A DNA stretch of 64,000 nucleotides, from assembly GCF_024700885.2 (NCBI RefSeq), contig NZ_CP117016.1. One strand, 5' to 3'. This stretch comes from Escherichia coli (lineage in GTDB: Bacteria > Pseudomonadota > Gammaproteobacteria > Enterobacterales > Enterobacteriaceae). The translations under genes were made by a program, and so were the position numbers. Below, piece after piece: positions 34,368-43,705 of the stretch. The first letter of the stretch is position 1. Every line of letters starts with the position of its first letter. The notes under the pieces were generated by a model. That model had not been told where the DNA came from. It ran no database searches and saw nothing but the letters and a program-made list of their open reading frames with translations.

Positions 34368-37300
34368 ATGAGCGGAAAACCGGCGGCGCGTCAGGGCGAC
34401 ATGACGCAGTATGGCGGTAGCATTGTTCAGGGTTCAGCCGGGGTACGTATTGGTGCCCCCACCGGCGTGGCCTGTTCGGTGTGCCCCGGCGGGGTGACGT
34501 CCGGCCATCCGGTCAATCCGCTGCTCGGTGCGAAGGTCCTTCCCGGCGAAACCGACCTTGCCCTGCCCGGCCCGCTGCCGTTCATCCTCTCCCGCACCTA
34601 CAGCAGTTACCGGACAAAAACGCCCGCGCCGGTGGGGAGCCTCGGCCCCGGCTGGAAAATGCCCGCGGATATCCGCTTACAGCTGCGCGATAACACACTG
34701 ATACTCAGTGATAACGGCGGCAGGAGCCTGTATTTTGAGCACCTGTTTCCCGGTGAGGACGGTTACAGCCGCAGCGAGTCACTCTGGCTGGTGCGCGGCG
34801 GCGTGGCGAAACTGGATGAAGGTCACCGGCTGGCCGCACTCTGGCAGGCACTGCCGGAAGAGCTTCGCCTGAGTCCGCATCGTTATCTGGCGACGAACAG
34901 TCCGCAGGGGCCGTGGTGGGTACTCGGCTGGTGTGAGCAGGTGCCGGAGGCGGATGAGGTGCTGCCCGCGCCGCTGCCGCCGTACCGGGTACTGACCGGG
35001 CTGGTGGACCGCTTCGGGCGCACACAGACGTTTCACCGTGAGGCTGGCGGCGAAATCACCGGCGTGACGGATGGCGCAGGCCGTCACTTCCGGCTGGTAC
35101 TGACCACGCAGGCGCAGCGGGCAGAAGAAGCCCGGCAGCAGGCCATTTCCGGCGGGACGGAACCGTCCGCTTTTCCTGATACCCTGCCGGGTTACACCGA
35201 ATATGGCCGGGACAACGGCATCCGTCTGTCTGCCGTGTGGCTGACACACGACCCGGAATATCCGGACAACCTGCCAGCCGCGCCGCTGGTACGCTATGGC
35301 TGGACGCCGCGTGGCGAACTGGCGGCGGTGTATGACCGCAGCAATACACAGGTGCGCAGCTTTACTTACGATGATAAATACCGGGGCCGGATGGTGGCGC
35401 ACCGTCACACGGGCCGACCGGAAATCCGTTACCGTTACGACAGTGACGGGCGGGTGACAGAACAGCTAAACCCGGCGGGCTTAAGCTACACGTATCAGTA
35501 TGAGAAAGACCGCATCACCATCACCGACAGCCTGGACCGCCGTGAAGTCCTGCACACGCAGGGCGAAGGCGGGCTGAAGCGGGTGGTGAAAAAGGAACAC
35601 GCGGACGGCAGCGTCATGCAGAGTCAGTTTGACGCGGTGGGCAGGCTTAAGGCACAGACGGATGCCGCAGGCCGGACGACTGAGTACAGCCCGGATGTGG
35701 TGACGGGACTCATCACGCGCATCACCACACCGGATGGCAGGGCATCGGCATTTTACTATAACCACCACAACCAGTTAACGTCAGCCACCGGGACTGACGG
35801 GCTGGAGTTGCGCCGGGAATATGATGAATCCGGCCGTCTGATTCAGGAAACCGCACACAACGGCGATATCACCCGCTACCGTTATGATAATCCACACAGT
35901 GACTTACCCTGCGCAACGGAAGATGCCACCGGCAGCCGGAAAACCATGACATGGAGCCGTTACGGTCAGTTGCTGACCGTCACTGACTGTTCCGGTTATG
36001 TAACCCGTTATGACCATGACCGTTTTGGTCAGGTGACGGCGGTGCACCGCGAGGAAGGGCTGAGTCAGTACCGCGCATACGACAGCCGTGGACAGTTAAT
36101 TGCGGTGAAAGACACGCAGGGCCATGAAACGCGGTATGAATACAACGCCGCCGGTGACCTGACCGCCGTCATTGCCCCGGACGGCAGCAGAAACGGGACA
36201 CAGTACGATGCGTGGGGAAAGGCCATCCGTACCACGCAGGGCGGTCTGACGCGCAGTATGGAATACGATGCTGCCGGACGGGTCATCCGCCTGACCAGTG
36301 AAAACGGCAGCCACACCACCTTCCGTTACGATGTACTTGACCGGCTGATACAGGAAACCGGCTTTGACGGCCGCACACAGCGTTATCACCACGACCTGAC
36401 CGGCAAACTTATCCGCAGCGAGGATGAGGGGCTGGTCACCCACTGGCACTATGACGAAGCAGACCGCATCACGCACCGCACCGTGAAGGGTGAACCGGCA
36501 GAGCAGTGGCAGTATGATGAACGCGGCTGGCTGACACAAATCAGCCATCTCAGCGAAGGCCACCGGGTGACGGTGCATTACGGGTATGATGAGAAAGGCC
36601 GCCTGACCGGTGAGCGCCAGACGGTGCATCACCCGCAGACGGAAGCACTGCTCTGGCAGCATGAAACCAGACACGCTTACAACGCGCAGGGACTGGCGAA
36701 CCGCTGTATACCGGACAGCCTGCCCGCCGTGGAATGGCTGACTTACGGCAGCGGCTGGCTGGCAGGCATGAAACTCGGCGACACACCGCTGGTGGAGTAT
36801 ACCCGCGACCGCCTGCACCGGGAAACGCTGCGCAGCTTCGGCCGTTATGAACTCACCACCGCTTATACCTCTGCCGGGCAGTTACAGAGCCAGCACCTGA
36901 ACAGCCTGCAGTATGACCGCGATTACACCTGGAACGACAACGGCGAACTCATCCGCATCAGCAGCCCGCGACAGACCCGGAGTTACAGCTACAGCGACTC
37001 CGGCAGGCTGACCGGCGTCCACACCACCACCTCAAATCTGGATATCCGCATCCCGTATGCCACGGACCCGGCAGGCAACCGCCTGCCCGACCCGGAGCTG
37101 CACCCGGACATCACCCTCAGCATGTGGCCGGATAACCGTATCGCCCGTGACGCGCACTATCTTTACCGGTATGACCGTCACGGCAGACTGACGGAGAAAA
37201 CCGACCTCATCCCGGAAGGGGTTATCCGCACGGACGATGAGCGGACTCACCAGTACCATTACGACAGTCAGCACCGGCTGGTGCACTACACGCGGACACA

Positions 37301-38555
37301 ATATGCAGAGCCGCTGGTCGAAAGTCGCTATCTTTACGACCCGCTGGGCCGCAGGGTGGCAAAACGGGTATGGCGGCGTGAACGGGACCTGACGGGCTGG
37401 ATGTCGCTGTCACGGAAACCGGAAGTGACCTGGTACGGCTGGGACGGCGACCGGCTGACCACGATACAGAACGACAGAACCCGCATCCAGACGGTTTATC
37501 AGCCGGGGAGCTTCACGCCACTCATCAGAGTTGAAACCGCCACCGGTGAGCTGGCGAAAACGCAGCGCCGCAGCCTGGCGGATGCGCTTCAGCAGTCCGG
37601 CGGCGAAGACGGTGGCAGTGTGGTGTTCCCGCCGGTGCTGGTGCAGATGCTCGACCGGCTGGAAAGTGAAATCCTGGCTGACCGGGTGAGTGAGGAAAGC
37701 CGCCGCTGGCTGGCATCGTGCGGCCTGACGGTGGAGCAGATACAAAACCAGATGGACCCGGTGTACACGCCGGCGCGAAAAATCCACCTGTACCACTGCG
37801 ACCATCGCGGCCTGCCGCTGGCGCTTGTCAGCACGGAAGGGGCAACAGAATGGTGCGCAGAATACGATGAATGGGGCAACCTGCTGAATGAAGAGAACCC
37901 GCACCAGCTGCAGCAGCTCATCCGCCTGCCGGGTCAGCAGTATGATGAGGAGTCAGGCCTGTATTACAACCGCCACCGCTATTATGACCCGCTGCAGGGG
38001 CGGTATATCACTCAGGATCCGATTGGGCTGAAGGGGGGATGGAATTTTTATCAGTATCCGTTAAATCCGGTTCAGTATATAGATTCAATGGGACTGGCAT
38101 CTAAATATGGACACTTAAATAATGGCGGATATGGAGCGAGACCCAACAAACCGCCTACGCCCGATCCAAGTAAGTTGCCAGACATAGCGAAACAATTAAG
38201 ACTGCCATATCCTATTGACCAGGCCAGTAGTGCGCCTAATGTTTTCAAAACATTCTTCAGAGCATTAAGTCCTTACGATTACACACTGTATTGCAGGAAG
38301 TGGGTAAAACCCAATCTGACTTGTACGCCGCAGGATGATCCCCAGTATCCAGGGATGGAGACAAAGACAGCAAGTGATTACCTGCCACAGACAACTTGGC
38401 CAACAACTCAATTACCACCAGGATATACTTGTGCAGAACCCTATTTATTCCCAGACATTAATAAACCCGATGGGCCAGCAACAGCAGGGATAGATGATTT
38501 GGGTGAAATTTTAGCTAAAATGAAACAGAGAACATCGAGAGGAATAAGAAAATGA
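34368..38555 (+). CDS. rhsA: Rhs-family polymorphic toxin (RhsA locus) with a divergent C-terminal toxin domain
   Basis: 1395 aa; N-terminal PAAR-like region, long YD-repeat core (…YRYD…, …YDxxGR…), the core-end motif …[31 protein letters not shown]…, then an AT-rich, compositionally distinct C-terminal tip of about 155 aa. Confidence 0.9.
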
Positions 38556-39121
38556 AAAGAGCTTTGTTCTTTTTGCTGATGATATTCGTTAGTTTTGGTG
38601 TTATAGCTAATTGCGAAACACAAGCTAAAGATCAAGATTGCTTTACCATTTTCACTAAGGGTACTATTTTTTCCGCGTTTCCTGTCTTAAATAATAAAAC
38701 CATGTGGAGATGGTATCAGAATGAGGACATAGGTGAGTATTATTGGCAAACAGAGCTTGGTATATGTAAAAATAACAAATTCACACCAAGCGGGGCGAGA
38801 CTCTTAATTCTCGTCGGATCACTACGCCTTAATGAAAATCATGCAACCAAAGGAACGTTGCAGGAGTTGCTAAATACAGCAGAAAAAACGGCGTTTCTCG
38901 GCGATCGGTTTAGAAGTTATATAAGAGCGGGTATCTATCAAAAAAAGAGCAGTGATCCAGCTCAGTTGTTGGCAGTCCTTGATAATTCAATCATGGTTAA
39001 ATATTTTAAAGATGAGAAGCCAACTTATGCTCGAATGACAGCACATCTCCCGAACAAAGATGAGTCTTACGAATGTTTAACAAAAGTACAGCATGAACTG
39101 CTTCGTAGTGAAGAAAAATAA
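38552..39121 (+). CDS. Putative cognate immunity protein of the rhsA C-terminal toxin
   Basis: 189 aa; start overlaps the rhsA stop (ATGA); AT-rich; N-terminal hydrophobic leader ([19 protein letters not shown]) suggests export. Role inferred from position only. Confidence 0.5.
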
Positions 39122-39289
39122 AATCTCTTCCTGAGAAAATAAATTAACTATTCGAAAAAATATGTTCTTAATGGGTATCCAGGAACACCAGAAGGTCGAT
39201 TTGGAAAAATGGATTCCGATGGTAAGAATATCATATATTCTGAATGTAATGTTTTACCCACAACTTTTGAGATTCGATAGGTGTAGAGC

Positions 39290-39637
39290 ATGAGAAACTC
39301 ACTAATATTACTTATTATGATATTGTTTACAATATCACACTCAGTATTTGGAAAAGAAAATTCAGCGGAAATTTTAGTAAATAGTCGTGAAATGGCTTTG
39401 GAATTATCATATGTTTATATTAAATATATATACGGGAAAGAAAAAGCAGAATTTCAGAAACCATATAGTATTACAGATGACAATAATTGTTGGAAAATCG
39501 AGGGAAAACAACCGAAGACGTTAGGAGGAAATTTTACAATACTAATAGCGAAAAAAGATGGGCAAGCGTTGGATGTAATACACAAAATAATCCACTGTTC
39601 AGACGATTCAAATATTTTACCAAGGTGTGTTTCGTAA
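39290..39637 (+). CDS. Small secreted immunity-like protein
   Basis: 115 aa; signal-peptide-like N-terminus; paralogous to the frameshifted ORF at 41240-41507. Confidence 0.45.
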   Translation: MRNSLILLIMILFTISHSVFGKENSAEILVNSREMALELSYVYIKYIYGKEKAEFQKPYSITDDNNCWKIEGKQPKTLGGNFTILIAKKDGQALDVIHKIIHCSDDSNILPRCVS

Positions 39638-39799
39638 CTATTTTGTGTACAATATGACTCTACATATCGACGAAAAAACCACTTGATTTGACAGGAACAC
39701 ATTCAAAAAAATTTCTTTTTCATTTCAGGAGCGATTTTCATCTGTTACTTGAAGTATCTGTGAGATTAAGTGACTCCCCCTAACGTCGTACTAAATAGT

Positions 39800-40100
39800 A
39801 ATTACTGGCCATACCGGGAGCAGTATTCGGCGCTTCCCACATGCAGCAGAATAACCGCATCAGCGAAGATGTATTGTATTTTTACTATCACAATGTGTAC
39901 GGACGGTTTATGGAAAAGAATGAACATTAGATACGCGATGCGGCGGCAGGTTACACGGTTATCACTACGATAGCCAATACTGGCTGGTGCATTACCGCCG
40001 TGAACAATAGGACGCCGTACTGCTGGAAATTTCTTACCTTTATGACTCCCCGCGCCGCCGTATTGGGAAACGGGAAGCAATCAAGATGAGGCTGATATAA
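39800..40100 (+). pseudogene. Degraded Rhs core remnant 1
   Basis: Translates in pieces to …QNNRISEDVLYFYYHNVYGRFMEKNEH*… and …HYDSQYWLVHYRREQ*…YLYDSPRRRIGKREAIK…, alignable to rhsA residues …[26 protein letters not shown]…[13 protein letters not shown]…[13 protein letters not shown]…; in-frame stops. Confidence 0.55.
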
Positions 40101-40297
40101 TGTGCGGAATGCCTGAGTATTTTTAGAATAGGGGGGTAATATGTTTGATAGAATATATCTTGGTGATCGAGCAATAAAAAATTGAATTTGATTTATGGAG
40201 TAAACAAATTAGAATTCAGGTTAATTTAATCTCAAGGATAGCCTATGGTACAACAGAATGGAATTTTTATGATAATGAAGACTTAGAAGATGGTTAT

Positions 40298-40540
40298 TTG
40301 GTATTTTCAGATGTTAGTTTCTTCAATATAACTCCTAATGGCTCTATTCCAGATGATTATATAATTTCAATAATTACAGATAATGTCAATGTTGAATATT
40401 TTGAATCAACTATAGTTGCTGTTGGTCAAATTCGAAACACAAATGTTGGTGACATTGATAATATTGGTGAATGTCAAATTTTCATCAGGTATAAAGACAG
40501 CTGGATTGAGAATAAACTCAAAGAAAAAATAATTGAATAA
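40298..40540 (+). CDS. Hypothetical small protein (TTG start in track)
   Basis: 80-aa ORF in the AT-rich spacer after Rhs remnant 1; no recognisable motif. Confidence 0.25.
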   Translation: MVFSDVSFFNITPNGSIPDDYIISIITDNVNVEYFESTIVAVGQIRNTNVGDIDNIGECQIFIRYKDSWIENKLKEKIIE

Positions 40541-40639
40541 CCATGTTATGTATAGACATTTTAGATGGAACGAACCAGAGGAAGGCATGCCTCCGACTTG
40601 GGTTATATGGGCACGGAGTTTTAGTGTAGTGAACTCAAC

Positions 40640-40710
40640 GACGCAAACCGAATAACCTGCCGCTGGCGCTTATCAGCACGTAAGGGACAACAGCGTAGTA
40701 CGTAGAATAA
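40640..40710 (+). pseudogene. Degraded Rhs core remnant 2
   Basis: cctgccgctggcgcttatcagcacgtaagggacaacag… matches the rhsA core segment cctgccgctggcgcttgtcagcacggaaggggcaacag… at about 37810. Confidence 0.45.
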
Positions 40711-40792
40711 TCCTACCCACGTAGTATGGACACAGGCCTAAGCGAGGTTCTGGTTTTCAAATTTTTCGGGAGTTAGATGATTGGAGGAACAG

Positions 40793-41158
40793 ATGATAAG
40801 AATCGCATTTTTAATAACCAATAAATTTCTTGAGATAGATAGTACCACTCTTGCTGGATATGATTTTAGCGGGATGAATCTACATCGTGCCACCCTCAAT
40901 GGTTATTGTCTTGATGGGGCGAAATTTGAAAAAACTCATTTAAGAAATGTAATGATTCAACATACATCAACTAGAAATGCTGTCTTTCGCAATGCGGCTC
41001 TGATGAATGCTATTCTGAATAACTCAGATTTCACTGGAAGTGATTGTAGTAATTCAAGGTCAATAGGTGAAAATTTTAAAGCAATAGATAATCATGGGAA
41101 AGATATAATAAATGGAAAAGGATTGCCTAATGTTTGCAAAATACATGACAACGTATAA
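40793..41158 (+). CDS. Pentapeptide-repeat protein
   Basis: About 121 aa from MIRIAF (ggagga RBS); tandem pentapeptide-like repeats (…ATLNGYCLDGAKFEKTHLRNVMIQHTSTRNAVFRNAALMNAILNNSDFTGSDCSNS…). Confidence 0.5.
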   Translation: MIRIAFLITNKFLEIDSTTLAGYDFSGMNLHRATLNGYCLDGAKFEKTHLRNVMIQHTSTRNAVFRNAALMNAILNNSDFTGSDCSNSRSIGENFKAIDNHGKDIINGKGLPNVCKIHDNV

Positions 41159-41239
41159 GAAAATATTATTCAGAACCTATGTGATTGTATCTTTATTTTT
41201 ACATACAACACATGGGCGCAGTGTAATAATATTATTATA

Positions 41240-41507
41240 ATGCGCAAGTATGAAAGTGAGGGGAAATACACCGTTAGAAATTTGGTCAAAAATAAAGCTA
41301 TAGCATTGGAATTAGCTGAGATGTATGTTAAAAATCGTTATGGACATGATGCCGAAGAAGAAAAAAAAACCATACAAAATCATGGAATTACCAACAAGTT
41401 GGATTGTTGAAGGCACCATTGAATCAGACCAAATTGCTGGTAGGGTTTTTATTATAGAAATAGGCAAAAATGACGGGAGAATTCTAAATTTTGGCCACGG
41501 AAAATAA
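41240..41507 (+). pseudogene. Frameshifted paralog of the 39290-39637 immunity-like gene
   Basis: Frame 1 from ATG 41240 reads MRKYESEGKYTVRNLVKNKAIALELAEMYVKNRYGHDAEEEKK, then an A9 homopolymer (41361-41369) shifts the frame into the track ORF 41325-41507 (…PYKIMELPTSWIVEGT…GKNDGRILNFGHGK). Removing one A restores an intact reading frame of about 88 codons. Confidence 0.5.
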
Positions 41508-41611
41508 GTATGTAAGGATAAACAAACATCGTGTGTGCTGATGGCAGAGTAGGTGGAGGACTCCAGACAGTCAAACGATAGAAAAAGATAGTCTTTATGG
41601 AGGTTCCTGCA

Positions 41612-42454
41612 ATGTCGAATACATACCAGAAAAGAAAGGCAAGTAAAGAGTATGGTTTATACAATCAATGTAAGAAACTAAATGATGATGAATTATTTCG
41701 CTTACTTGATAATCGCAATTCATTGAAAAGGATTTCATCTGCCAGAGTATTGCAGCTAAGAGGTGGGCAAGACGCTGTTAGATTGGCAATTGAATTCTGC
41801 GCTGACAAAAATTATATCCGTAGAGATATAGGAGCATTTATACTCGGGCAAATAAAAGTTTGCAAAAAATGCGAAGATAGCGTTTTTAATATTTTAAAAA
41901 AGATGGCACTGAATGATAAAAGTGCTTGCGTTCGAGCTACAGCAATCGAGTCAACTGCTCAGCGATGCAAGAAAAACCCAATTTATTCACCTAAAATAGT
42001 AGAACAATCTCAAATTACTGCTTTTGATAAATCGGCTAATGTCAGACGTGCTACGGCATTTGCTATTTCTGTTATCAATGATAAAGAAACAATTCCACTA
42101 TTGATTAATCTGTTAAAAGATCCAAATGGAGATGTCAGAAACTGGGCCGCATTTGCAATAAATATCAATAAATATGATAATAGTGATATTAGGGATTATT
42201 TTGTGGAGATGCTTCAGGATAAAAATGAGGAAGTCCGTATTGAAGCAATAATCGGACTTTCCTACAGAAAAGATAAAAGGGTTTTATCTGTTTTATGCGA
42301 TGAGTTAAAAAAAAATACTGTTTATGATGATATCATTGAAGCTGCGGGTGAATTAGGTGATAAAACGCTACTTCCTGTTTTAGATACTATGTTGTACAAG
42401 TTTGATGACAATGAAATTATAACTTCCGTTATTGATAAGCTGAAGCGTTCATAG
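41612..42454 (+). CDS. yibA: HEAT-repeat protein YibA
   Basis: 280 aa from MSNTYQKRKASKEYGLYNQ…; recognised as the K-12 rhsA-adjacent YibA. Track start is 5 codons upstream. Confidence 0.85.
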   Translation: MSNTYQKRKASKEYGLYNQCKKLNDDELFRLLDNRNSLKRISSARVLQLRGGQDAVRLAIEFCADKNYIRRDIGAFILGQIKVCKKCEDSVFNILKKMALNDKSACVRATAIESTAQRCKKNPIYSPKIVEQSQITAFDKSANVRRATAFAISVINDKETIPLLINLLKDPNGDVRNWAAFAININKYDNSDIRDYFVEMLQDKNEEVRIEAIIGLSYRKDKRVLSVLCDELKKNTVYDDIIEAAGELGDKTLLPVLDTMLYKFDDNEIITSVIDKLKRS

Positions 42455-42495: not shown

Positions 42496-43305
42496 GTGCA
42501 GATGCTCGACCGGCTGGAAAGTGAAATCCTGGCTGACCGGGTGAGTGAGGAAAGCCGACGCTGGCTGGCATCGTGCGGCCTGACGGTGGCGCAGATGCAA
42601 AACCAGATGGACCCGGTGTACACGCCGGCGCGAAAAATCCACCTGTACCACTGCGACCATCGCGGCCTGCCGCTGGTGCTTATCAGCACGGAAGGGGCAA
42701 CAGAATGGTGCGCAGAATACGATGAGTGGGGCAACCTGCTGAATGAAGAGAACCCGCACCAGCTGCAGGGGCGGTATATCACTCAGGATCCGATTGGACT
42801 GAAGGGGGGATGGAATTTTTATCAGTATCCGTTGAATCCGATAACTGATATTGACCCGTTGGGATTAGCGACCTGTTTATACAGCATAACTTTAGGTATG
42901 CTTTCATGCGTTTCAGATACGCCAAGTGATGATAATTCTTATGGTGTGCTTACTATTTCAGTCGCCTCTGGTAATAATGGTAATAATATGCAATGTAAAA
43001 ATAATCCTGGTTGTACACACTTACAAAATAGAGGCCCAATACCTCCAGGGGTATGGAGCTGGAATGTTAATGGTCCTGGAGCAACTAATAGAAAACCTAA
43101 TGGTATACGTTTAGTACCGTCAGCAAATACAGAAACGTATAATCGTGATGGATTTTTAACACATAGTTGTTTAAACGCTTTTGGTCCATCTTTAGGACCT
43201 CGATTCTGTTCCGAGGGTTGTATAACTGGTTCATCTAATGACATGCAAAAATTAAATGAGCTAATATTTTCAGAGCCAGATAGCACATTAACAGTGACGG
43301 ACTAG
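42496..43305 (+). CDS. yibJ: Orphan Rhs C-terminal fragment with Cys/Gly-rich toxin-like tip
   Basis: 269-aa ORF; its first about 100 aa match the end of the rhsA core (…[16 protein letters not shown]…[18 protein letters not shown]), with a 28-codon deletion spanning [12 protein letters not shown]. Symbol from position. Confidence 0.65.
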
Positions 43306-43309
43306 AAAT

Positions 43310-43705
43310 ATGGCAAGGTTATTAACAATTGTGCTTTTTTTCTCTATTTCTGCGAATGCAGTTACTGTAAACCAATTTCAGAGAGAGTTGGATTTGGCAG
43401 ACAAGGCAATATTATGGGCACTAATATCAGCCAGTACCCAAGAGGGACGAAAAGCGTGTTCACTTAGCTATTTTTCATGTAAAGCCGCAGAGGCTGAACT
43501 CGGACTGGCATATATGGCTGCTAATGATAACAAGGCATTTCTCACATCCTTATCTAGAATAATGATGTACAAAATAGATGCTGGACTTTCCGAATCCTAT
43601 ACATGCTATTTATTAAGCAAGGGAAAGATCATAAGACCATATCTGAAGAATCTAAATCCACACCAACTTGTCGCTGATTGCATTGAAACTGTAAATAAAA
43701 GATAA
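43310..43705 (+). CDS. yibG: Small secreted protein, putative immunity partner of the yibJ fragment
   Basis: 131 aa; signal-peptide-like N-terminus (MARLLTIVLFFSISANA); 4 bp after yibJ. Symbol assigned by position only. Confidence 0.4.
   Translation: MARLLTIVLFFSISANAVTVNQFQRELDLADKAILWALISASTQEGRKACSLSYFSCKAAEAELGLAYMAANDNKAFLTSLSRIMMYKIDAGLSESYTCYLLSKGKIIRPYLKNLNPHQLVADCIETVNKR

What the first reader, a model, noticed from the sequence alone, without database searches (positions are those of the whole stretch)
40793..41158. Pentapeptide-repeat protein embedded among Rhs orphan modules
A protein of about 121 aa made largely of pentapeptide-type repeats sits right after Rhs remnant 2. Pentapeptide-repeat proteins can mimic DNA and protect topoisomerases, so in this position it is a plausible immunity protein for a nucleic-acid-targeting Rhs tip that has since been lost, or a stand-alone anti-toxin.
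Basis: inference. Interest (0 to 1): 0.4.

Follow-up and report, generated by a model that had tools for sequence, protein, structure and literature searches.

The report
Truncated Rhs immunity gene remnant
The 121-codon reading frame is real and pentapeptide-repeat, but it is a broken leftover: the first 60% of an antidote (immunity) gene of an E. coli Rhs toxin, welded by two deletions to an IS3 scrap on one side and to the tail of a different toxin on the other, so it is an ordinary scar in a toxin-gene junkyard that probably no longer protects.

Summary
The ORF (40793-41158, 121 aa) exists. Residues 17-96 form 16 pentapeptide units, and the model gives a four-coil right-handed beta-helix. 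It is a chimera.

- **Source of the left part.** Window 40758-41075 is about 96% identical to an intact toxin/immunity pair at the rhsE locus of 144 of 5,426 complete E. coli genomes. It keeps the last 12 codons of that Rhs tip and the first 95 of 161 codons of the pentapeptide-repeat gene, which overlaps the toxin's stop codon.
- **Left edge.** A 66-bp IS3 end scrap.
- **Right edge.** A 7-bp microhomology joins the fragment in frame to the last 28 codons of an RhsB-type (DUF4329) tip. The frameshifted YhhH-like NTF2 immunity gene follows.

The same unannotated toxin domain (MDGNVIVxGNHR...DWGNR) sits directly upstream of this repeat-protein family on an Rhs fragment of unknown organism, on a CdiA-type protein in Achromobacter, and on a VENN-like fragment in Pseudomonas aeruginosa.

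The copy lacks the last 66 residues, including the near-invariant C-terminal motif, so it is most likely inactive. DNA mimicry and a nucleic-acid target are not supported. This is an ordinary orphan-module remnant. The parent toxin/immunity family appears undescribed in the libraries searched.

The parts
40657..40706 (+). Rhs core scrap (LPLALIST then a stop). It is the end of the left-hand orphan module (YbfC-like, NTF2, DUF6258, Rhs scrap), which is also found at the rhsC locus of BL21.
   Evidence: Read from the sequence. 93.5% identity to BL21-derivative DNA annotated 'RHS domain-containing protein', and the match stops at 40709 where IS3 begins.
40707..40772 (-). IS3 right-end scrap (66 bp, 94% identical to IS3). 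The outer terminus is at about 40707 and the element is cut off internally.
   Evidence: blastn against an E. coli IS3 copy, base-by-base comparison, and IS3 annotations under thousands of matches.
40758..40796 (+). Last 12 codons plus stop (QIFRELDDWRNR*) of the Rhs toxin tip whose immunity gene follows. Bases 40758-40772 are a stretch shared by IS3 and the tip (CAAATT[G/T]TTC[C/G]GGA) and form the left junction.
   Evidence: Alignment to strain 631 Rhs/PRP DNA and three-way comparison with IS3.
40783..40787 (+). Shine-Dalgarno-like GGAGG, 5 nt before the ATG. It lies inside the retained toxin 3' end.
   Evidence: Sequence. The parent locus has GGGGG at the same place.
40793..41075 (+). First 94-95 codons of the 161-codon pentapeptide-repeat immunity gene (N-terminal cap plus 16 pentapeptide units, four coils).
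   Evidence: 90.7% aa identity over residues 1-97 of WP_000618048.1, DNA alignment, family alignments, model.
41069..41075 (+). Right junction: the 7-bp microhomology AATTTTA (Asn-Phe codons), present in both parents.
   Evidence: Codon-level comparison of the window, family members and K-12 rhsB, plus DNA alignments.
41071..41158 (+). Last 28 codons plus stop of an RhsB-type (DUF4329) toxin tip, in frame with the fragment above.
   Evidence: 81% nt identity to the rhsB/yhhH junction in about 2,700 E. coli genomes, K-12 RhsB tail FKAIDNHGKEITNRKGLPNVCRVHGNM*, and the K-12 tip is DUF4329.
41130..41507 (+). YhhH-like NTF2-fold immunity gene (partner of the DUF4329 tip). It overlaps the ORF's 3' end and is frameshifted in this window.
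   Evidence: PGAP 'frameshifted' in identical DNA. Indels of 4, 3 and 1 nt relative to K-12 yhhH. K-12 YhhH is Imm-NTF2-2.
40793..41158 (+). The 121-codon chimeric ORF as a whole.
   Evidence: PGAP annotates it either as two pseudogene pieces or as one CDS, WP_019842716.1.

Best explanation
The ORF is a chimeric remnant left by rearrangements in the orphan-module array downstream of rhsA.

Its parent is the immunity gene of an Rhs toxin that is still intact at the rhsE locus (the yncG to pptA-yddH-nhoA interval) in other E. coli. There, a 161-aa pentapeptide-repeat protein is encoded with a 4-nt overlap on the toxin's stop codon. Inferred from the position and the conserved pairing, that protein binds and blocks the toxin tip in the producing cell.

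In this window only 318 bp of that module survive (40758-41075): 12 toxin codons and 95 immunity codons.
- Left side: the module was cut at a 15-nt stretch (13 of 15 identical) shared with the end of an IS3 copy.
- Right side: a 7-bp microhomology joined it in frame to the last 28 codons of a DUF4329 (RhsB-type) tip. The partner immunity gene of that tip is itself frameshifted here.

Shown: the homologies, both junctions, the truncation, and the pairing of parent toxin and repeat protein.

Inferred: the full-length protein is the immunity factor, and the 121-aa product no longer protects. The product has four coils, no C-terminal coils or cap, and a disordered foreign tail.
For: **Parent pair.** Rhs WP_001563834.1 (L034 2271-6482) and PRP WP_000618048.1 (6479-6964) are both intact. 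The pair is present at 99% identity or more in 144 of 5,426 complete genomes.

**Window against parent.** Homology starts at 40758 inside the toxin's last codons and ends at the AATTTTA junction. Amino-acid identity is 90.7% over residues 1-97.

**Foreign tail.** It is 81% identical in DNA to the K-12 rhsB end, and homology continues through yhhH to yibA. The K-12 tip is DUF4329 and YhhH is Imm-NTF2-2.

**IS3 scrap.**

**Toxin and repeat protein adjacent elsewhere**, diverging in parallel:
- L035, an Rhs fragment: 59% and 66% identity.
- P. aeruginosa, with a VENN-like pretoxin: 36% and 35%.
- Achromobacter, a Fil_haemagg protein of 808 aa whose toxin ends DWGNR*, with the repeat protein 36 nt downstream.

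**What was lost.** The near-invariant C-terminal positions T144, W146, F150, P152, G156 and A157 of the family are absent from the window ORF. The tail is modelled as disordered.

**Decay around and within.**
- A 1-nt insertion breaks the ORF in another assembly, L024.
- The neighbouring NTF2 gene is frameshifted.
- PGAP calls the ORF two pseudogene pieces.
- No promoter signal above chance.
Against: - The ORF is open, with a good ribosome-binding site, and near-identical in about 273 complete genomes. That fits either function or recent common descent.
- The N-terminal 90 residues are predicted to fold and keep the family's invariant motifs LHRA, LRN and ALMxA.
- Roughly half of the genomes with the fragment lack the full pair, so they could profit from a partly active orphan.
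- No experiment shows that the full-length protein is the immunity factor or where it contacts the toxin.
- Some family members sit outside toxin loci.
Confidence: 0.75

Rival explanations
1. A still-functional orphan 'mini-immunity' protein. The four N-terminal coils suffice to bind the Rhs tip, so carriers are protected from neighbours that deploy the rhsE-type toxin.
For: - The ORF is open, has GGAGG, and is near-identical in about 273 genomes.
- Residues 1-90 have a confident beta-helix model.
- The invariant N-terminal motifs are retained.
- About 130 genomes have the fragment without the full pair.
- Intact orphan copies without a toxin exist in Salmonella salamae, Intestinirhabdus alba and Escherichia whittamii, which shows that the family is kept as an orphan.
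Against: - 66 of 161 residues are missing, including the near-invariant T-x-W-P-x-x-F-x-P-x-x-x-G-A end.
- The foreign tail is disordered.
- A frameshifted allele exists.
- The upstream toxin gene that would drive expression is gone and replaced by an IS3 scrap, and no promoter stands out.
- The 142 genomes that have both copies do not need it.
- The in-frame fusion has a one-in-three chance expectation.
Confidence: 0.17
2. A stand-alone DNA-mimic pentapeptide-repeat protein (Qnr, MfpA, AlbG or McbG type) that shields gyrase or another nucleic-acid enzyme, unrelated to the Rhs array.
For: - The fold is shared with MfpA and QnrB1.
- Distant relatives sit in housekeeping contexts: pabB-yoaH, and fdhD/azlCD.
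Against: - NCBIfam Qnr and MfpA models score 17-19 bits for the ORF and 21-37 bits for full-length relatives, against cut-offs of 240-500.
- The ORF is about half the length of those proteins, and its pI is 8.5 rather than acidic.
- The closest relatives are tied to toxin tips.
- The cognate toxin is itself acidic (pI 4.8), which does not suggest a DNA-binding surface to be mimicked.
Confidence: 0.03
3. A type VI secretion accessory protein of the TagAB/TagB kind (pentapeptide proteins that work with DUF2169 near vgrG) rather than an immunity protein.
For: Pentapeptide proteins are known T6SS accessories (PMC3942780; reference to Kim et al. 2021). A weak tblastn match goes to a DUF2169 protein.
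Against: - No DUF2169 or vgrG gene within 8 kb on either side of identical DNA.
- The parent gene overlaps the 3' end of the toxin gene, which is the immunity position.
- The same pair occurs with CdiA-type proteins, which use type V secretion.
Confidence: 0.03

Closest known systems
Orphan rhs-CT/rhsI (and cdiA-CT/cdiI) modules downstream of full-length Rhs or CdiA genes (Poole et al. 2011; Koskiniemi et al. 2013, 2014; from my own knowledge)
   Same: It sits in an array of displaced tips and immunity genes after rhsA. It derives from a toxin/immunity pair that is intact at another rhs locus in other strains. It is flanked by insertion-sequence debris.
   Different: Classic orphans keep a piece of Rhs core, a whole tip and a whole immunity gene. 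Here only 12 toxin codons and 59% of the immunity gene remain, and the gene is fused to the tail of a second, unrelated tip.
RhsB / YhhH of E. coli K-12 (DUF4329 tip with Imm-NTF2-2 immunity)
   Same: The ORF's last 28 codons, its stop codon overlapping the next gene's start, and everything downstream to yibA are homologous to the K-12 rhsB-yhhH-HEAT region.
   Different: Only the extreme C-terminus of DUF4329 is present (about the last 14 of 116 profile positions), so there is no toxin. The NTF2 gene is frameshifted.
Pentapeptide-repeat proteins noted next to polymorphic toxins: YjbI-like genes beside GH-E Rhs nucleases (Jablonska et al. 2017, PMC5714182) and PRP-like Tsi6a / DYE20_11255 antitoxin (bioRxiv 10.64898/2026.07.13.738213)
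   Same: A small beta-helix repeat protein is encoded directly after a secreted toxin tip.
   Different: The partner toxin domain is different: MDGNVIVxGNHR...DWGNR, with no Pfam match. The 2012 catalogue of immunity families does not mention pentapeptide repeats in the text held. No sequence relationship to those proteins was tested.
Self-protection pentapeptide proteins McbG, AlbG, Qnr, MfpA (DNA mimics that protect gyrase; from my own knowledge, structures seen)
   Same: Right-handed quadrilateral beta-helix fold. They protect a cell against a toxic agent.
   Different: Those are about 180-220 aa acidic dimers acting on gyrase. This family is about 150-165 aa, the window copy is 121 aa and basic, and the family models are not met.
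T6SS accessory pentapeptide proteins TagAB/TagB (PMC3942780)
   Same: Pentapeptide repeats in an Rhs/T6SS-related neighbourhood.
   Different: No DUF2169 or vgrG nearby. The parent gene is in the immunity position and also accompanies CdiA-type toxins.

Membership tests
Pentapeptide repeat proteins (Pfam PF00805) | Tandem five-residue repeats that score above the family's gathering threshold | tested here: met
   35.8 bits against a cut-off of 20.2, E 5.7e-9. 16 units in residues 17-96.
Pentapeptide repeat proteins (Pfam PF00805) | Right-handed quadrilateral beta-helix, four units per coil | tested here: met
   AlphaFold2 pLDDT 74-90 for residues 1-90 with strands repeating every 20 residues. 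Foldseek PDB hits are all pentapeptide proteins, rmsd about 1 A over 65-72 residues. This is a prediction only.
The specific ~150-165-aa pentapeptide family (WP_000618048.1 and relatives) | Full length, with the C-terminal coils and the near-invariant T-x-W-P-x-x-F-x-P-x-x-x-G-A end | tested here: not met
   The window ORF departs from the family after F95. The nearly invariant columns T144, W146, F150, P152, G156 and A157 are absent.
Rhs/CdiA immunity genes | Gene lies immediately downstream of, or overlaps, the 3' end of the toxin gene | tested here: met
   In the parent the overlap is 4 nt. The window retains the same ATGA overlap with the last 12 toxin codons. In Achromobacter the gap is 36 nt, and in L035 the genes overlap.
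Rhs/CdiA immunity genes | Pairing with one toxin domain is conserved across taxa and delivery scaffolds, with parallel divergence | tested here: met
   Four pairs: E. coli Rhs; the L035 Rhs fragment, 59%/66%; P. aeruginosa, 36%/35%; Achromobacter Fil_haemagg. The sample is small.
Rhs/CdiA immunity genes | The protein neutralises its cognate toxin | not testable with these tools
   Needs co-expression or competition assays.
Qnr / MfpA topoisomerase-protecting pentapeptide proteins | Reaches the NCBIfam family cut-off | tested here: not met
   17-19 bits against cut-offs of 240-460 for the ORF. Full-length relatives score 21-37 bits.
Qnr / MfpA topoisomerase-protecting pentapeptide proteins | Acidic, DNA-like surface | tested here: not met
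   pI is 8.5 for the ORF, and 4.7-8.5 across the family. This is a whole-protein charge, not a surface calculation.
T6SS accessory pentapeptide proteins (TagAB/TagB) | Neighbouring DUF2169 and vgrG genes | tested here: not met
   None among the 17 annotated features within 8 kb on either side of identical DNA.
DUF4329 toxin tips (RhsB type) | Complete DUF4329 domain joined to an Rhs core | tested here: not met
   Only the last 28 codons are present. The K-12 tip matches profile positions 2-114 of 116.
ParB/sulfiredoxin-fold toxins (Tox-ParB), considered for the lost cognate tip | Significant profile or fold match to the ParB/Srx domain | tested here: inconclusive
   hhalign puts the GNHR motif in register with GERR of Spo0J and GCHR of sulfiredoxin, but probability is 0.3% and E is 0.2. 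There is no Pfam hit. The model has pLDDT 53 with no Foldseek match.

The most novel reading that the evidence does not exclude
The parent pair is a so far undescribed polymorphic-toxin family. It consists of a ~100-aa toxin domain (MDGNVIVxGNHR...DWGNR, with no Pfam or PDB match) carried by both Rhs and CdiA-type proteins, neutralised by a small pentapeptide-repeat beta-helix. On this reading the window's 121-aa chimera still works as a minimal orphan immunity protein, which would mean that the four N-terminal coils are the toxin-binding module. I rate the first half alone, a new toxin/immunity family, at about 0.75. The probability given here is for the whole statement, including activity of the truncated copy.
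Probability: 0.15. Interest if true: 0.55.

Novelty: new member of a known kind. Interest (0 to 1): 0.3.

Why it matters
For this window it matters little. The ORF is one more decayed piece in an Rhs orphan array, and annotation pipelines already flag it as pseudogene fragments.

Two things are of modest use:
- The locus gives a clean, base-resolved example of how such arrays are shuffled. Two microhomology junctions, one with an IS3 end, fuse parts of three different modules into one open frame that can be mistaken for a gene.
- Tracing the fragment to its parent exposes a toxin domain without any family assignment. It is consistently followed by a pentapeptide-repeat protein on both Rhs and CdiA scaffolds.

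The immunity catalogue checked here does not list pentapeptide-repeat proteins, so the pair would be a tractable case for asking how a beta-helix repeat protein blocks a toxin.

Tried and rejected
- **First protein search.** The word-indexed search returned only near-identical copies. The exhaustive search was swamped by giant repeat proteins and gave only three true relatives at 44-56% identity.
- **A conclusion I withdrew.** The contexts of those three relatives were fdhD/azlCD in Intestinirhabdus alba, pabB-yoaH in Escherichia whittamii, and a small-ORF island in Gilliamella. None had an Rhs match within 8 kb. I provisionally concluded that the family is not toxin-linked. The profile search then found closer relatives beside Rhs tips, so I withdrew that conclusion.
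- **IS3 cargo idea.** An IS3 scrap precedes the gene both here and in I. alba, so I considered that the gene is cargo of an IS3 derivative. I rejected this because the scraps are opposite ends of IS3, the gene has opposite orientation relative to them, and no second end was found.
- **RhsB tip containing repeats.** I considered this because PGAP names both pseudogene pieces 'pentapeptide'. I rejected it because the K-12 tip is DUF4329.
- **Substitution counts.** The truncated alleles differ by 7 non-synonymous and 1 synonymous change. I do not read this as relaxed selection, because the variant allele shares most of those states with the full-length gene. That points to old polymorphism or gene conversion.
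- **Fold of the cognate toxin.** The AlphaFold2 model from 3 sequences was poor. Foldseek, the PDB profile search and Pfam found nothing. The ParB/sulfiredoxin idea was not significant.
- **Signals and literature.** Promoter and terminator scans were not above chance. No paper in the held library names these proteins.

Full report
**Where the window is.** The region is the rhsA locus of E. coli: yibF, rhsA, a string of small genes, yibA, an Rhs remnant, then yibH, yibI and mtlA. DNA 100% identical to 40600-41300 is in strain PCN033 and many others.

- An ATG ORF runs from 40793 to 41158 (121 aa), with GGAGG five bases upstream.
- Pfam PF00805 is met: 35.8 bits against a cut-off of 20.2.
- Residues 17-96 parse into 16 pentapeptide units.
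- With an eight-sequence alignment, AlphaFold2 models residues 1-90 at pLDDT 74-90, with strand pairs recurring every 20 residues. Residues 91-121 fall below 50.
- The best Foldseek PDB matches are all pentapeptide-repeat proteins.

**The ORF is a chimera.** PGAP annotates the identical DNA as two pseudogene pieces, one 'missing C-terminus' and one 'missing N-terminus'. In another strain it annotates a single CDS.

The 3' end, from about 41071, is 81% identical to the rhsB/yhhH junction in some 2,700 E. coli genomes. K-12 RhsB ends ...GNFKAIDNHGKEITNRKGLPNVCRVHGNM*, and the window ORF ends ...ENFKAIDNHGKDIINGKGLPNVCKIHDNV*. Homology with K-12 continues through yhhH to the start of yibA. The yhhH-like gene in the window carries indels of 4, 3 and 1 nt and is frameshifted. 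The K-12 tip is DUF4329, and YhhH is an Imm-NTF2-2 protein.

**Finding the parent of the 5' part.** An exhaustive HMMER search found full-length relatives of 150-161 aa that align only to residues 1-96 of the ORF. Their contexts looked unrelated to toxins:
- Intestinirhabdus alba, between fdhD with a methyltransferase and azlCD.
- Escherichia whittamii and Escherichia sp. E1V33, after pabB-yoaH.
- Gilliamella, among small ORFs.

No Rhs match lay within 8 kb of any of them.

A profile search then recovered closer relatives. In Salmonella enterica subsp. salamae, a 165-aa copy (65% identity) follows a DUF4329/NTF2 pair. In E. coli, a 91-aa fragment turned out to be the C-terminal part of a copy lying directly after a long Rhs ORF.

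In 144 of 5,426 complete E. coli genomes this pair is intact. In strain 631, a 1403-aa Rhs protein (WP_001563834.1) is followed, with a 4-nt overlap, by a 161-aa pentapeptide-repeat protein (WP_000618048.1). The pair lies between yncG and pptA-yddH-nhoA. From my knowledge of the K-12 map, that interval is the rhsE locus.

**The junctions.**
- *Extent of homology.* Window-to-parent homology begins at 40758, inside the last codons of the toxin (QIFPELDDWGNR* in the parent, QIFRELDDWRNR* here). It runs through the ATGA overlap and the first 95 codons, and stops at AATTTTA, 41069-41075. Both parents have Asn-Phe codons at that spot.
- *Left junction.* To the left lies a 66-bp scrap of the right end of IS3 at 94% identity. 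IS3 and the toxin's 3' end share the stretch CAAATT[G/T]TTC[C/G]GGA, so the left junction also falls in a microhomology.
- *Further left.* An Rhs core scrap ends a module (YbfC-like, NTF2, DUF6258, Rhs scrap) that exists at the rhsC locus of BL21 derivatives. The similarity breaks off exactly where IS3 begins.
- *A second location.* The same IS3-PRP-tail block, 99.5% identical, sits at the rhsB locus in strain EC17CM6, while the DNA to its left is only about 90% identical. The block therefore moves between rhs loci by recombination.

**Is the parent an immunity gene?** Position says yes, and the pairing is conserved. The tip (143 residues after DPLGL) has no Pfam or PDB sequence match. Recognisable relatives of it precede relatives of the repeat protein in three other places:
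- An Rhs fragment of unknown organism, 59% and 66% identity, where the toxin carries a stop codon.
- A 2.6-kb P. aeruginosa record, 36% and 35% identity. The toxin follows a VENN-like motif and carries a stop codon.
- Achromobacter, where an 808-aa hemagglutinin-repeat protein ends ...MDGNVIIDGNHRYIAAKILG...DTGDWGNR* and the repeat protein starts 36 nt later.

Decayed toxins next to intact repeat proteins are what is expected of immunity genes. No experiment backs this, and four pairs are few.

**Is the window copy active?** Probably not.
- It lacks 66 of 161 residues, including the family's near-invariant C-terminal positions.
- Its foreign tail is modelled as disordered.
- An allele with a 1-nt insertion exists.
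- Its upstream toxin gene is replaced by IS debris, and no promoter stands out.
- Its neighbours are also decayed.

Against this, the frame is open and near-identical in about 273 genomes. The invariant N-terminal motifs are kept. About 130 genomes carry the fragment without the full pair: one search reports 417 places in 275 genomes, 144 of them with the full pair.

**What the toxin does is unknown.**
- The three-sequence model is poor (pLDDT 53), and Foldseek finds nothing.
- The GNHR motif resembles the ParB/sulfiredoxin signature. hhalign puts it in register but with probability 0.3%.
- The repeat proteins have pI from 4.7 to 8.5, and the E. coli tip has pI 4.8. That gives no support to DNA mimicry.
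- Qnr and MfpA family models are far from met.

**Comparison with the literature.**
- The 2012 catalogue of polymorphic-toxin immunity families does not mention pentapeptide repeats in the text held.
- Jablonska et al. 2017 noted YjbI-like pentapeptide genes beside GH-E Rhs nucleases without calling them immunity genes.
- A 2026 preprint describes a PRP-like immunity protein, Tsi6a.
- T6SS accessory pentapeptide proteins are a different matter.
- No paper in the held library names the proteins found here.

**Verdict.** The feature is an ordinary orphan-module remnant. The undescribed parent toxin/immunity family is the only part of wider interest.

Noticed in passing
L034 2271-6964 (E. coli strain 631); L037 3539-6447 (Achromobacter); L036 933-2342 (P. 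aeruginosa); L035: A ~100-aa toxin domain with the motif MDGNVI[IV]xGNHR and the ending DWGN[RK]* has no Pfam, NCBIfam-style or PDB sequence match. It occurs on Rhs and on CdiA-type proteins and is always followed by a small pentapeptide-repeat protein.
   Followed up: partly
L014 7889-7956 (Intestinirhabdus alba) and window 40707-40772: In two unrelated genomes the pentapeptide gene is preceded within 20-45 bp by a 66-69-bp scrap of an IS3 end that points into the gene. The scraps are opposite ends of IS3 (left end in I. alba, right end here). This may be coincidence or a recurrent IS3-mediated loss of the upstream toxin gene.
   Followed up: partly
window 41130-41507: The YhhH-like NTF2-fold immunity gene is broken by 4-nt, 3-nt and 1-nt indels relative to K-12 yhhH. 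The yibA gene after it (41597-42454) is intact. K-12 shows the reverse at its rhsB locus: yhhH intact and the HEAT-repeat gene broken.
   Followed up: partly
window 34368-39121: rhsA is an intact 1395-codon ORF here, whereas the PCN033 copy is annotated with an internal stop. Its 151-residue tip has no Pfam match. It is followed by a 189-aa YbfC-like protein with a hydrophobic N-terminus, which also has no family match.
   Followed up: partly
window 42496-43705: An Rhs remnant whose tip carries a Tlde1 (L,D-transpeptidase-like effector) domain is followed by an intact Imm57 gene. In PCN033 the Imm57 gene is annotated as frameshifted.
   Followed up: no
window 38552-40709 versus L020 (BL21 derivative, rhsC locus); L019 (EC17CM6, rhsB locus): The same orphan modules appear at the rhsA, rhsB and rhsC loci in different strains. 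The IS3-PRP-tail block is 99.5% identical between loci, while the adjoining DNA is about 90% identical. This indicates exchange of array segments between rhs loci.
   Followed up: partly
L029 7792-8276, L030 3428-3912, L031, L033: In several draft or metagenome assemblies the full-length rhsE-locus pentapeptide gene is itself split: by a 1-nt frameshift at codon 65 in L029 and L030, and by missing stretches near its 5' end in L031 and L033. These could be real decay or assembly errors.
   Followed up: no
L015 6814-8893 (Gilliamella MAG): The Gilliamella copy sits in a run of four small ORFs with no family match, between trpE and a PssA-like gene. This could be an orphan-immunity island, but nothing identifies the neighbours.
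   Followed up: partly
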